Assembly: GCA_964016885.1 (NCBI GenBank)
Contig: OZ024742.1
Location: 186,000,001-186,064,000, forward strand
Length of the DNA: 64,000 nucleotides
Source: Eledone cirrhosa
Lineage: Eukaryota
Reading direction: 5' to 3'
Within the stretch, counting starts at the first letter, position 1, and each line of letters begins with the position of its first letter. Position numbers and translations under genes: made by a program. Positions 8,252 through 21,842 of the stretch are shown here, in pieces. A model generated the notes under the pieces. That model did no database searches, was not told the origin of the DNA, and was given only the letters and a program-made list of their open reading frames with translations.

Positions 8252-8371
8252 ATAGGAACGAGTAGGACCCCGACGGCTGAGCTCAAGCCGTTTCGACGGC
8301 TAATTCTGGACGTCCAGAATTAGCCGTCGAAACGGCTTGAGCTCAGCCGTCGGGGTCCTTCTCGTTCCTAT
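8252..8371. repeat. Spacerless palindrome (60-bp arms, 1 mismatch) carrying the 3' part of a hammerhead ribozyme in each arm
   Basis: Centre ctggac|gtccag (8311/8312). Reading through the centre gives gacg-tccagaattagc-cgtc GAAA cggct-tgagctc-agccg TC gggg, i.e. stem II, GAAA, stem III and a GUC site. CUGANGA is absent. Confidence 0.8.
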
Positions 8372-8480
8372 ATATATATATATATATATATTTACAAATA
8401 TATATATATATATATATATATATATATATATATATATATATATATATATATATATATATATATATATATTTATATATATA

Positions 8481-8707
8481 TATATAGTATAAAGAAAACG
8501 AAAAATCAGTGATGCATCTGGACTTAATTTATTGCGTGCTACAATTGTTCGAACGAACTACCCGTGTCTGAAAGAACCTGCAGCCGTAGAATCAGCCAGA
8601 TCCATACAGGGACCATGTCTCGAGCTACCTGCCGGCAAAACAATTGTAGCACGCAATAAATTAAGTCCAGATGCACCACTGATTTTTCGTTTTCTTTATA
8701 CTATATA
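8481..8707. repeat. Inverted repeat, 69-bp arms (1 mismatch) with 89-bp spacer; PLE pseudo-LTR-like
   Basis: 8481-8549 is the reverse complement of 8639-8707. The arms contain acaattgta and an outward-facing AATAAA. Confidence 0.85.
8563..8653 (+). ncRNA. Degenerate type I hammerhead ribozyme with long stem II
   Basis: cgtgt CTGAAAGA [cc.gcag..gtag ... ctac-ctgc.gg] AAAA caattg TA gcacg. Stem I is cgtgt/gcacg, stem III is the palindrome acaattgt, and the site is GUA. The core has a 1-nt insertion and G12>A. Confidence 0.55.
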
Positions 8708-9352
8708 CACTCTACTCTGCTGAATATCGAGTGCTAATTTTGGCATACCGCCTATGGAAGCACCAAAGCTACCATTATACACAACTATATATATATATAT
8801 ATATATATATATATATATATATATATATATATATATATATATATTTATGTATATATATATGTATATATATATATATATATATGTGTGTGTGTGTGTGTAG
8901 GATTCCGTGTTGTGTTTAAAACTTGGCTGTTCTTGTTCCATCTAAATTCTATCTCCATTTTTGTTGTTGTTATTGTTGTTTAGTATTTTTTAAATCATAT
9001 TTAATCATATATTAATAACAGTAAAAGTTCTCAAGACAATCATCAACGCCGGTAGACTTTCACTATATTTTGACAGCTTTATGGTAAGCTGTGCTCCATA
9101 TATATCAACCAACAGTACATTAAAGGAGGTTTGTGTTTGTGGGCGTATTTCGTGCGAGTGTGTATATGTCTGTACGTGTGTGTGTGTCTGTACGTGTGTG
9201 TTGTGAGTGGTGTCTGTGTGTATGTATGTTCTGCGCTTATGTGTTTGTGTGAGCAAGAACTTGGCAGTTCTATAAATAGACGTCGATAAAATTAGTACCA
9301 GATTGAAATACATACTAGATTCGATATGATGAACTAAAACATTAAAATATAT

Positions 9353-9567
9353 TTAATATAAAGAATGGTGTGCTCATGCGCAGAGATGCTATAAAATAAC
9401 TTATAAAATAGAGTCAATTCCCTCAAAGATGGAAAAGGAAGTTGCCAATATCCGCTACCAGGAATTGAACCCCCTATCTCCCTCATATCCCTCTTTAAGG
9501 TATTCACCCTATTTTATAAGCTATTTCATAGCATCTCCGCGCATGAGCACATCGCCCTTTATATTAA
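9353..9567. mobile_element. MITE-like element, ~75-bp imperfect TIRs bounded by TTAA
   Basis: ttaatataaagaatggtgtgctcatgcgcagagatgctataaaataacttataaaatag... versus ...ctattttataagctatttcatagcatctccgcgcatgagcacatcgccctttatattaa. Confidence 0.7.
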
Positions 9568-10021
9568 CTTTAATCCCTTCAGCACTTCGTAAAAGGGGGC
9601 TGGATATATGTGTGTGTGTATGTGTGTGTGTGTGTGTGTGTGTGTGTGTGTAAACAGAAATAACGAAAATAACAAAACAAACAACACAGTAAATGGAAGA
9701 AATATATTAGTTTAACGCTTGAAATAGCAGGAAGAGAGTCTTAACGTTTCGGGCACACAGAATATAGTGTTAAAAATAGAAGATAAATAGAAAGTAAAGA
9801 GTGATGAGAGGAAGGAACGGGGAAATAAAAAAAATGAAATGGGAAGAAAAAAACACACGTGCGTATTCAGTCGGCCATTATCCGCCTCTCTCATTTTCTA
9901 GGTGAGGTAGTGTTGGCGTGTACTACTACCGTTTTATTGTAAGCAGGGTCGATGCCATTAGTGGTGACATTACCGCTAGATTTGATTTTTTTTTTTTTAC
10001 TGTTAGATATATATACACCAT

Positions 10022-10249
10022 CAGAGAACTGCCAACCTCTAAAAACCCAAACGGGGTGTACCATGATCTTTCATGGTACTTCCCGTTTGGGTTTTTAGAG
10101 GTTATTTTAGTGCCCCAAAACAAGGAGAAATGCGGCAAAATGGGGAGATTTTACATAATGAAAGCTATACCCATTTTCACAAGGCTATACCCATTTCCAC
10201 AAAGGCTATTGAAAATCTCCCCGTCAGACGGGGAGAGTTGACAGGTCTG
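10022..10249. mobile_element. Putative MITE with CAGA..CTGCCAAC-type termini and internal hairpins
   Basis: Left end cagagaactgccaac and right end gttgacaggtctg (RC cagacctgtcaac). Internal 70-bp hairpin at 10034-10103 and ctccccgtc-a-gacggggag at 10217-10235. No clear TSD. Confidence 0.5.
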
Positions 10250-10630
10250 CTATCAGCCAAGAAATATTTTATTTTTGTTTGTGATTAATGTATGGTAGTT
10301 ATCTGTCTTTAATTTTGCACTGTTCCGTCTATTGCATGAATATCCTTGCTCGTATACTTGCTTTTAAATAATTTTGGTTGGGCAGCCCCACATGTATTTT
10401 AACCTCATTGTTTATATCAGTTATAAAACTCGTTATTGTATTGTGTTGTGTTATGAGTATTTACTCCGAAATTAATTATCTTTTCATTAAACAGGAGAGA
10501 TACAACATGGAGTCGTCTGAAGAGCTCCTACAGATCTTAGATATAATAAACAATCGGTCAACGGAATAGCCTGTATGTGCCTGATAATTCCACAACAATG
10601 TGCACTTATAACGTAATTGTTAGGAAGATT

Positions 10631-10759
10631 CACACACACACACACACACACACACATTTATATATATATATATATATGTGTGTGTGTGTGTGTGTGTGTG
10701 TGTGTGTGTGTGTGTGTGTGTGTGTGTGTGTGTGTGTGTGTGTGTGTGTGTGTGTGTGT
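10631..10759. repeat. (CA)n-(TA)n-(TG)n microsatellite
   Basis: Seen directly. Confidence 0.95.
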
Positions 10760-10836
10760 CGGGTTCAATCGGGGATAACCCCAGTAAGTAAAGTACTCAA
10801 TATATAGCAGAGTATAAATATTTAATATAGAAATAC

Positions 10837-10917
10837 CTTCTACAGGATTAGAACTGTTTCATTCGAAGGAAATCATCAGGATTTCCTTCGAATGAAACAG
10901 TTCTAGTCCTGTAGAAG
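10837..10917 (-). ncRNA. Palindrome (38-bp arms, 5-nt loop) containing a hammerhead core
   Basis: Minus strand: CTGATGA t-ttc-cttc-gaa-t GAAA cag-ttctaatc-ctg TA gaagg. The core motifs, stem III and a GUA site are present. The 5' strand of stem I is replaced by the inverted copy. Confidence 0.7.
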
Positions 10918-19705: not shown

Positions 19706-19802
19706 GTATATACCATACTTTCGCTAAGCAGACACAGGCATCCAGTGGAACATATGGGATATGAAAGCTGGAAAGAGAGAGTGGGGTGCATCTGCTCTGG
19801 GC

Positions 19803-19875
19803 TGGTATTTTCTTTATTGACCCGCAAAGGATGACAGGCAAAGTAGATCTCAGCACGACTTGATCTCAGAAGGCA
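19803..19875 (-). mobile_element. Degenerate SINE central fragment
   Basis: tggtattttctttattgacccgcaaaggatgacaggcaaagt is the RC of the SINE central domain. Confidence 0.65.
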
Positions 19876-20289
19876 GAACACAGAACAAATACCGAATACT
19901 CAAACGATACTACCGAATCAACTGCTTTGACTCTATGATGGCAAGTAAACAAAATCAATAAGAGATTAAACAGACAATATATATAATTGTATTAAATAAA
20001 TCATTTAAATTTTAATGAAATAATATCAGCTATTCTAAAGTAAAGACGTCAATACTTAAATTTTGACAGGTTTATTGTGTGTTGTGCTCGAGATATAACA
20101 AGGAAAATTATATTAGATCAAGTACAGTCTTTATCTATCGTCTGTGTGTATGTGTGTGTCTCGTGTGTTGGAGTGTTCTCTGAGTGAGTGTCATGGAACT
20201 TGACAGTTTAATAAATACACGCCGATAAAATAAGCACCAGACTGTAACGCATACCGGTTTCAGTATGATAAACCAGTATATATATATAT

Positions 20290-20501
20290 GGATGTGTGTG
20301 TGTATCCATGTGTGTGTGTGTGTGTGTGTGTATCCATGTGTGTGTGTGTGTTTATCCATGTATGTGTGTGTGTCTGTATCCATGTGTGTGTGTGTGTGTA
20401 TGTCTGTATCCATGTATGTGTGTGTGTGTGTGTGTGTGTGTGTGTGTGTGTGTGTGTGTGTGTGTGTGTGTGTGTGTGTGTGTGTGTGTGTGTGTGTGTG
20501 T
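20290..20501. repeat. (TG)n microsatellite with periodic tatccatg interruptions
   Basis: Seen directly. Confidence 0.9.
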
Positions 20502-20691
20502 GGAAAAAAAGCGAGGTTTCAGATTAAAGTCTTCATAGATTATACATAGTTACGACTGTTTCACAGATGGGTGGCTAAGGATCTACATTAGAGTCCCGAT
20601 TTTGGCACCCGCCTCAGTAAACCACGAATCTACTGAACCACATGTTATATATATATATGTGTATACATATATGTGTGTATATTTATATATA

Positions 20692-20790
20692 CAGTGGCGG
20701 ACTGGCCAGGTTGCCCAATGGCAAGTGGGCCGGGGGGCGGGGGGGCGGTAGCATTGTAAGAGATCACAGTAGCATTGCAGGGCCCACTGT
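20692..20790. mobile_element. Possible hAT-like terminus (CAGTGGCGGACTGGCC)
   Basis: GC-rich island that begins cagtggcggactggcc right after a TA tract. No partner TIR was found. Confidence 0.4.
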
Positions 20791-21313
20791 AGTATTTTAG
20801 GTTCCACTGCTTTGCTTTGAAAAAATACCTGAAATCTAAGAGAAAGAATAAAAATGTTTTTAAAATAAATAAAACAATTAAACAAAGCATTTGGTCCACC
20901 AATTGCCCAGGGAATTACTAGAAACCAAAATATACGATAGTGCAAATAGCTGGAACCAGTGGTTGTACATGGTACTAAATCTAAGGCTTAGTGTATGCAT
21001 GCAAACATACATATATAGTCACACACACACACAAGAATATATACATATTTATATAAGAGAGTATTGAAGTTTGCTTGAAGCATTGTGGAACAATAAATAA
21101 ATATCTTTAAGTCGTTTGGAAGCCTCGACAATGCAAATGGGTAAATCTCCGGGTAACAAGGTCCGGTCGTGGAGAGAGAGATGTAAGTGGATGTACGTTG
21201 CGAAGCGTGGTGTGTATAAGATGTGTGAGATGTGTAGAATGAAGGGAAGAGTATAAAGGATAAAATAAAAATAACAACACAAGAGAGAGTTACCTTGGGA
21301 GAGATTTAATAGT

Positions 21314-21349
21314 CCCTATATATTTCGGATTCACATCCATCAACTGGGG
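21314..21349 (-). ncRNA. Degenerate or variant minimal hammerhead motif
   Basis: Minus strand: ccc CAGTTGA t ggat-gtga-atcc GAAA tata TA ggg. The stems and GAAA are intact, but the core differs from CUGANGA at two positions. Confidence 0.5.
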
Positions 21350-21730
21350 TTTTTTCCGGGGTGGGGGAAAAGGTTGTCTGTCGGACAAGTCCGGAACGCA
21401 TCCTTCGCTGTTTGTTGTTTTGAATATCTATATTTATATATTTACACACGAACTACTGACCAAATAATATTTGATATCAAAGGGTTAAAGACATCTGTCA
21501 AATCAATTAGTGGTGAAGGTCGTGTATATACACACACACACATATATATATATATATATATATATATATATATATATATATATATATATATATATATATA
21601 TATATATATATATATATATGTATATATATATATATATATATATAGTAATAATAATAAATGTGAAGACTAAAATCCAAAGAAGGCTCGATAAGGATAAATA
21701 TATATCAAATATATAAGAACCCTAGAGCAA

Positions 21731-21842
21731 ATATTTATTAAAATAACAGATTAAAGTTTAAGCAAAGAATCGCTGAAGATCCCGTTAAGGGTGAAAACAG
21801 CGATTCTTTGCTTAAACTTTAATCTGTTATTTTAATAAATAT
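21731..21842 (+). ncRNA. Perfect inverted repeat (45-bp arms) with a hammerhead core in its 22-nt loop
   Basis: ...gaatcg CTGAAGA t-ccc-gttaa-ggg-t GAAA a cagcgattc... Stem III and the cleavage site are replaced by the inverted copy. It lies between (TA)n tracts. Confidence 0.7.

What the first reader, a model, noticed from the sequence alone, without database searches (positions are those of the whole stretch)
8252..21842. Four fold-back inverted repeats in microsatellites have their junctions in hammerhead ribozyme cores
Seen: four inverted repeats of different sequence (8252-8371, 8481-8707, 10837-10917, 21731-21842) lie between (TA)n/(CA)n/(CT)n tracts, and in each the inversion breakpoint maps to a hammerhead core. 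At 8311 it is the start of stem II. At 8550 the inverted copy starts at the GAAA position. At 10875-10879 it is CUGAUGA itself. At 21797 it is just after GAAA. Established: PLE pseudo-LTRs carry type I hammerheads and PLEs often have inverted 5' segments. Inference: these are tiny, non-coding, microsatellite-targeted retro-insertions in which reverse transcription stalls or snaps back at the folded ribozyme. They may form a class of palindromic solo-pLTR/retrozyme elements whose transcripts would be long hairpins that mask the ribozyme.
Basis: partly seen in the sequence, partly recalled or inferred. Interest (0 to 1): 0.75.

Follow-up and report, generated by a model that had tools for sequence, protein, structure and literature searches.

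The report
Penelope stubs fold at RNA start
The four hairpins are real head-to-head stubs of very abundant Penelope-like jumping genes inserted in microsatellites, and their joints likely mark the capped start of the element's RNA (which happens to overlap the hammerhead motif) after copying from both cut DNA strands, rather than a stall or snap-back at the ribozyme.

Summary
All four inverted repeats are real. Each is one insertion of a different high-copy family. Two families lead back to Penelope-like elements (PLEs) with RT and GIY-YIG reading frames, and a third to a GIY-YIG end. Each insertion has one arm ending at a near 3' site and one ending 60-90 nt further (the PLE 'tail'): 58 of 60 classifiable unselected pairs. 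Arm 5' ends pile up at an initiator-like site. In family D, 66 of 96 arms ending there carry an extra G, the signature of a copied RNA cap. That site overlaps the hammerhead in two families, lies in its loop II in one and 30 nt upstream in another. In family B, 0 of 100 arms end at GAAA. The CUGAAGA at 21773 is made by the joint. In 23 of 58 pairs each arm holds sequence the other lacks, which excludes snap-back there. The architecture is published; the two-strand, cap-ended mechanism is inferred from DNA alone and was not found in print. This scan reached similar readings before, on other DNA of this genome and in other genomes.

The parts
8222..8311 (-). Family A tailed arm (family positions +2 to +91, tail cut short at the TA tract)
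8312..8371 (+). Family A tail-less arm (+2 to +61): 3' strand of stem II, GAAA, stem III with palindromic loop, GUC, 3' strand of stem I; no 5' core half
8481..8549 (-). Family B tail-less arm (+107 to about +172)
8550..8777 (+). Family B tailed arm (+18 to +250)
8563..8653 (+). Family B hammerhead-like motif (8-nt 5' core, long stem II, minimal stem III); the G of GAAA is changed in this copy
   Evidence: read against the family
10760..10881 (-). Family C tailed arm (+6 to +127); CUGAUGA at 10879-10873, 5' strand of stem I mostly lost at the joint
10880..10925 (+). Family C tail-less arm (+13 to +58, ending at the CT tract)
21643..21775 (-). Family D tailed arm (+31 to +163)
21775..21842 (+). 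Family D tail-less arm (+8 to +75); holds stem II and GAAA, which the other arm lacks
21773..21779 (+). Apparent CUGAAGA core created by the joint; the family has CAGAAGA
8372..8480 (.). (TA)n target tract between insertions A and B
21906..22790 (-). Neighbouring 5'-truncated PLE (family E): GIY-YIG frame 22786-22310, hammerhead core at 22101, 64-bp perfect hairpin 22710-22773; used as a control family

Best explanation
The four repeats are head-to-head stubs of Penelope-like retrotransposons in dinucleotide tracts, likely made when both cut target strands prime reverse transcription at two fixed internal sites near the front of the element's RNA and both copies run to or near its likely capped 5' end before being joined. 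Shown: family membership, one tailed plus one tail-less arm, the 5'-end hot spot, the extra G in family D, short overlaps or insertions at joints. Inferred: that the hot spot is a Pol II start site, that the G is the copied cap, that a dimeric RT-endonuclease uses one start site per strand, and that joining is by microhomology with trimming. The hammerhead coincides because it sits at the pseudo-LTR promoter. Priming in the 3' pseudo-LTR of a longer RNA would give the long, ORF-bearing copies with the same architecture.
For: (1) Parents: L261 holds pLTR + open frame (719 aa from Met; YRDD, Cys linker, GIY-YIG-like end with CCHH) + pLTR for A; L263, L271 and L272 give RT-endonuclease frames for D; L266 and L268 give an endonuclease end for B. 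Atlas look-alikes score 0.96-0.99 and include GIY-YIG/RVT_1 clusters. (2) Two 3' ends per family: A +61/+141, C +74/+132, D +75/+163, B +172/+252. This matches two RT start sites and extension of both strands in vitro (PMC11167929). (3) Unselected pairs: 58 mixed, 2 both tailed, 0 both tail-less, 12 unclassified, of 72; p=3e-15 against a 50:50 choice. Selected B pairs: 40 of 41 mixed. (4) The tail-less arm reaches further 5' in 40 of 58 pairs, by more than 10 nt in 23 (read). (5) Per-nt ending rate at -2..+12 against -100..-11: A 0.074 vs 0.006, C 0.13 vs 0.008, D 0.033 vs 0.004. (6) D: 1785 arms have a non-parent base before +1 against 382 at +6; G in 66 of 96 against 13 of 46-47 (counted by eye from the first 100 rows; Fisher p=1e-5). 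50 of 80 remain after dropping 16 rows where the partner arm could supply the G; background is 28%. An extra G marks capped full-length L1 inserts (PMC11702581). (7) Family C has a TATA-like box 31 nt before +1.
Against: No RNA data map the start site. The cap signal is strong only in D: by eye 11 G against 3 A among 54 joint rows in A (C and T ambiguous), 3 of 11 in B and 7 of 18 in C. In A the ending rate stays high to -10 (0.081), so the edge is not sharp. The window's A joint (+2/+2) has no extra G and recurs in at least 40 scored places. [quoted passage not shown] No ORF-bearing parent was found for C. Pfam and PDB gave no match for the A protein. Upstream motifs in A and D are only TATA-like, and none was seen in B.
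Confidence: 0.72

Rival explanations
1. Reverse transcription stalls at the folded hammerhead, and the cDNA snaps back and copies itself.
For: Joints overlap the core in window copies C and D and touch GAAA in B. Ending rates at +13..+30, over stem II and GAAA, are somewhat raised in C and D (0.017, 0.010). Window copies A, B and C are each compatible with one arm being a subset of the other.
Against: A snap-back copy cannot hold sequence missing from the first cDNA, yet 40 of 58 pairs have the tail on one arm and the further 5' reach on the other, as does window copy D. 0 of 100 B arms end at GAAA-stem III. Family E's hot spot is 57-75 nt upstream of its core. The extra G is unexplained. A polymerase moving 3' to 5' would be expected to stall before a stem, not after passing it (inference).
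Confidence: 0.08
2. The stubs are a self-propagating class of palindromic solo-pLTR or retrozyme elements copied from palindromic masters.
For: The window's exact A joint occurs in at least 40 places at up to 99% identity. A fixed 5' hairpin is shared by several family E copies, so palindromes can be inherited.
Against: Unselected joints differ nearly site by site. Stubs lack the upstream promoter part and a tandem hammerhead, which defines animal retrozymes (bioRxiv 10.64898/2026.07.22.740005). Long ORF-bearing copies share the architecture.
Confidence: 0.1
3. Self-priming on an antisense template, as proposed for rotifer Penelope elements.
For: Published reading of palindromes at inverted junctions (PMC3846280).
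Against: The extra G sits at the sense 5' end. Both arms end at sense-defined RT start sites, one of each.
Confidence: 0.06
4. Assembly or amplification artefact.
For: Perfect palindromes can arise in amplified libraries (general knowledge). The window's own loci were not checked in long reads.
Against: Thousands of dispersed copies with a rule-bound asymmetry; arms carry mismatches. Contigs of run X1 cross the A centre in 3 of its 8 listed pieces and show many different joints onto 8312 (family-level, and X1 may be the source sample).
Confidence: 0.01

Closest known systems
Insertion units of endonuclease-positive PLEs with inverted 5'-truncated copy and one-sided tail (Craig et al. 2021, PMC8557442; Arkhipova et al. 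2013, PMC3846280)
   Same: Head-to-head inverted copy, tail on one end only, microsatellite targets, TATA- and Inr-like motifs in the pLTR, palindromic junctions.
   Different: Here the unit shrinks to 150-300 bp, the tails are about 60-90 nt rather than 30-40, and the data give a strict one-of-each rule and a cap-like G, not reported in the passages read.
Poseidon of Anolis in vitro (Frangieh et al. 2024, PMC11167929)
   Same: Two adjacent internal RT start sites, both strands cut and extended, predicted dimer, ribozyme cleavage not needed for insertion.
   Different: That work reports no strand difference in start site and does not explain inverted copies; the parents here have a Cys linker like Neptune or Nematis elements.
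PLE minimal and variant hammerheads (Cervera and de la Pena 2014, PMC4209133)
   Same: Type I motifs in pLTRs, extra base between A9 and 10.1, palindromic loop 3, U3-A8 variant, pairs on opposite strands 100-700 bp apart.
   Different: D has a U4A core, B an 8-nt 5' core, A a loop II of about 30 nt that contains the inferred start site.
L1 twin priming (recalled) and cap-G at full-length L1 5' junctions (PMC11702581)
   Same: Two target ends prime on RNA; microhomology joining; extra G.
   Different: L1 twin priming inverts a non-overlapping 5' piece (recalled); here both copies cover the same stretch, giving a palindrome.
Animal non-LTR retrozymes
   Same: Non-coding, hammerhead-bearing, PLE-related.
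   Different: Retrozymes are tandem direct repeats with whole ribozymes; these are inverted stubs with broken or masked motifs.

Membership tests
Endonuclease-positive Penelope-like elements | Single ORF with RT and C-terminal GIY-YIG endonuclease linked to the repeat | tested here: met
   A (L261, L270) and D (L263, L271, L272); endonuclease end only for B. Motifs read by eye; Atlas support; Pfam blank.
Endonuclease-positive Penelope-like elements | ORF-bearing parent for family C | tested here: inconclusive
   Longest arms seen (L179) carry no frame; C is filed by architecture and hammerhead only.
Endonuclease-positive Penelope-like elements | Pseudo-LTR from a partial tandem, adjoining inverted copy, one-sided tail | tested here: met
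   L261 self-matches; pair classes.
Neptune clade | Cys linker before GIY-YIG, CCHH motif, (TA)n targets | tested here: met
   Linker and CCHH residues visible in the L261 and L164 frames; criteria from PMC8557442. These exclude Hydra (no CCHH) but do not separate Nematis.
Neptune clade | Placement in an RT phylogeny | not tested
   No named reference PLE proteins were on hand.
Type I hammerhead ribozyme | Three helices around CUGANGA, GAAA and NUH in the parent | tested here: inconclusive
   C is canonical, with a two-sided change in stem I and a variable loop II; A, B and D have variant cores. The three-way fold is the MFE for 3 of 7 references: A_1, A_2, C_2. No Rfam hit.
Type I hammerhead ribozyme | Intact motif in the four window copies | tested here: not met
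   A lacks the 5' core; B has a changed GAAA; C and D have lost the 5' strand of stem I.
Type I hammerhead ribozyme | Self-cleavage | not testable with these tools
   Needs an in vitro assay.
Non-LTR retrozymes | Tandem direct units, each with a whole hammerhead | tested here: not met
   The stubs are inverted pairs; definition.
Non-LTR retrozymes | Circular RNA expression | not testable with these tools
   No RNA holder listed.

The most novel reading that the evidence does not exclude
PLEs integrate by an obligatorily asymmetric two-strand mechanism: a dimeric RT-endonuclease primes each end of the break at a different fixed RNA site. The tens of thousands of short palindromes in this genome are 'strong-stop' products that record the capped start of each family's RNA. 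This would explain the inverted copy, the one-sided tail and the palindromic junctions of the whole class with one rule, and would let PLE promoters be mapped from genome sequence alone. In family A, the start site inside hammerhead loop II would make promoter-born RNA uncleavable and only read-through RNA cleavable.
Probability: 0.55. Interest if true: 0.62.

Novelty: new member of a known kind. Interest (0 to 1): 0.42.

Why it matters
How PLEs make their tandem and inverted structures is named as an open problem (PMC8557442). The only in vitro system shows two start sites and two-strand extension but does not explain inversions. The pairing rule and the cap-like G give sharp predictions for that system and argue against the published antisense self-priming reading. 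Short head-to-head pairs number 27 in 1.18 Mb of sampled DNA (read), roughly 70,000 genome-wide by extrapolation. That is a large potential source of long double-stranded RNA where genes read through them (expression untested). As objects, the four stubs are by-products of a known kind of element.

Tried and rejected
Rfam scans of the window and of parent stretches of A, C and D found no hammerhead (B's parent was not scanned). A search for a canonical CUGANGA upstream of family A's GAAA gave 44 matches; in the 30 loci read they were chance joints or other families' cores, and the true parent has a variant core. Pfam and PDB were blank for the A protein, and Pfam was blank for 2 of 3 endonuclease fragments. 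No RNA holder was listed for L261:2450-3350, which is no evidence on expression. Laid records were contigs, which cannot show RNA starts. The loci were selected by likeness to the window's joints and were not used for hot-spot statistics; they falsely suggested a GAAA hot spot in B. One RNA or two: arms of one A pair differ less than arms of different pairs (2.1 vs 4.7 per 39 nt; D uninformative at 1.7 vs 1.7), but chimeras of A with other families exist, so this is undecided. Target-site duplications were not assessed because the flanks are microsatellite. The random sample stopped at 1.18 Mb, which leaves B with only 3 unselected arms. Paper searches: 'Penelope-like'+'twin priming' gave 3 papers, none on this by title or abstract start; 'Penelope'+'head-to-head'+'retrotranspos'+'both strands' gave 0; some searches were read as listings. 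Most subscription papers are not searched, and no supplements were read.
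Full report
Observation. The window lies at G000:C3:186.0 Mb in a 3.0-Gb genome. Earlier scan notes call it an octopus genome; I did not test that. The four inverted repeats exist with 93-100% arm identity and fold far better than shuffles. 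At least six further inverted repeats lie in the first 24 kb.

Families. Each repeat belongs to a dispersed high-copy family. Exact patterns count 18,189 arms for A, 18,579 for D, 2,309 for C and 904 for B. In 1.18 Mb taken at fixed positions (118 stretches, 4 of them next to the window) there are 70, 42, 30 and 3 arms. Following long arms upstream gives PLE reading frames. L261 holds an inverted truncated copy, a pLTR, a 719-aa frame from Met with YRDD, a Cys linker and a GIY-YIG-like end, and a second pLTR; D has similar frames; B has an endonuclease end. Pfam and PDB did not recognise the A protein; the Atlas gave look-alikes with GIY-YIG and RVT_1 families. The motifs fit Neptune or Nematis by the criteria in PMC8557442 (passages). 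No frame was found for C.

Hammerheads. Rfam finds none. By pairing, C is a canonical type I motif with a two-sided change in stem I and a variable loop II. D has a CAGAAGA core. A has a U3-A8-type core with a long stem II, a variant reported for PLEs in PMC4209133 (passages). B has an 8-nt 5' core, a long stem II and a minimal stem III. None of the four window copies keeps an intact motif.

3' ends. Arms end at one of two sites per family. Among 72 unselected head-to-head pairs of A, C and D, 58 have one of each, 2 have two tails, none has two short ends and 12 could not be classed (p=3e-15). Selected B pairs give 40 of 41. This matches the one-sided tail in PMC3846280 and PMC8557442 (passages) and the two RT start sites and two-strand extension in PMC11167929 (parts 1-2 of 4 read), although that paper saw no strand difference.

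5' ends. Joints are not uniform. For unselected arms of at least 85% identity, not cut by the fetched stretch, 47 of 70 A arms, 25 of 29 C arms and 17 of 44 D arms that reach +12 end between -2 and +12, about 8 to 17 times the per-base rate at -100 to -11. In A the rate stays high to -10. Position +1 is a pyrimidine-purine step in an initiator-like context (label recalled), with a TATA-like box 31 nt upstream in C. In D, arms with a non-parent base before +1 number 1785, against 382 at +6. By eye, G precedes +1 in 66 of 96 joint rows (4 point mutants of long arms dropped) and +6 in 13 of 46-47 (the rest of the 100 dropped as point mutants) (p=1e-5). After dropping 16 rows where the partner could supply the G, 50 of 80 remain; several stand directly against (TA)n. 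An extra G marks capped full-length L1 insertions (PMC11702581, passages). The signal is weaker in A, B and C. A pLTR promoter is established for Penelope (PMC2377424, passages), and TATA- and Inr-like motifs were noted in rotifer pLTRs.

Ribozyme or start site. The inferred start is the first base of stem I in D, 1-2 nt before it in C, inside loop II in A and 30 nt upstream in B. So the overlap with the core in C and D follows from position. In B, 0 of the first 100 arms end at GAAA or stem III and 2-3 end in the 34 nt examined (the pattern slightly favours long arms), while 6 of 30 end exactly at +1. In family E, 12 of 15 listed arms end 57-75 nt upstream of the core.

Snap-back. A self-copy must be a subset of the first cDNA. 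In 40 of 58 pairs the tail is on one arm and the further 5' reach on the other, by more than 10 nt in 23; window copy D is such a case. Later flipping of the spacer cannot explain pairs whose arms share only about 8 nt. Of 63 short joints, 32 overlap, 7 are blunt and 24 carry an insert, as expected of microhomology joining (inference).

Mechanism. Most likely the enzyme cuts both strands of a (TA)n tract, each 3' end primes at a different internal site, and the two cDNAs are trimmed and joined. If priming is in the 3' pLTR of a long RNA, long copies result. If it is near the RNA's front, both copies run off the capped end and a 150-300-bp palindrome results. The cap, the promoter and the dimer are inferred. 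Whether one or two RNAs are used is open: A arms share subfamily variants, but chimeras with other families occur.

Artefact check. Contigs of run X1 cross the A centre and show many joints onto 8312; this is family-level support only.

Novelty. The architecture is published. The pairing rule and cap-like G were not found in the searches, which miss most subscription papers. PMC13282606 (passages) lists Penelope-like families in Octopus vulgaris without such detail; the retrozyme preprint was read in part 1 of 5. Earlier unreviewed notes of this scan reached the two-primer and start-site readings on other DNA. My reading was set before I saw them; they are not independent support. Verdict: real, a known kind of insertion, with a testable mechanistic clue; the ribozyme-stall idea is not supported.

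Noticed in passing
window 22710-22773 and L175, L179: A perfect 64-bp hairpin caps the 5' end of the truncated family E PLE; the same hairpin and end recur in other loci, so this palindrome is inherited from a master copy.
   Followed up: partly
L069, L087 (about 1150-1560); L068, L076, L079, L083 (about 1250-1560): Chimeric insertions in which a family A arm continues into another hammerhead-region family, suggesting template jumps between different PLE RNAs.
   Followed up: partly
L261:108-5927: Apparently intact autonomous family A element with inverted copy, two pLTRs and an open 719-aa frame; a possible substrate for in vitro work.
   Followed up: partly
window 24678-64000: Array of about 1405 copies of a 28-bp satellite with strong strand skew and longer-range repeats.
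   Followed up: no
window 13566-16463: Broken frames that look like Helitron Rep and helicase (label recalled).
   Followed up: no
window 10993-11531: GIY-YIG-like PLE endonuclease fragment; 10993-11097 has an inverted partner at 12823-12928.
   Followed up: partly
window 109-313, 7352-7485, 9369-9551, 10034-10103, 19501-19540: Other inverted repeats without a noted hammerhead; those at 9369 and 10034 recur as palindromes in other loci.
   Followed up: partly
window 6648-7081, 18788-19428, 23981-24110: Short dispersed repeat in tandem and inverted copies, SINE-like by size.
   Followed up: no
window 2129-2758: LINE-like reverse transcriptase C-terminal fragment, near-identical to one in L264.
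   Followed up: no
L265:1289-4453: 1055-aa LTR-retrotransposon-like pol frame nested inside a family B copy (label recalled).
   Followed up: no
family A parent, e.g. L270:4030-4130: The inferred start site lies inside hammerhead loop II, so RNA begun there would lack half of the core.
   Followed up: partly
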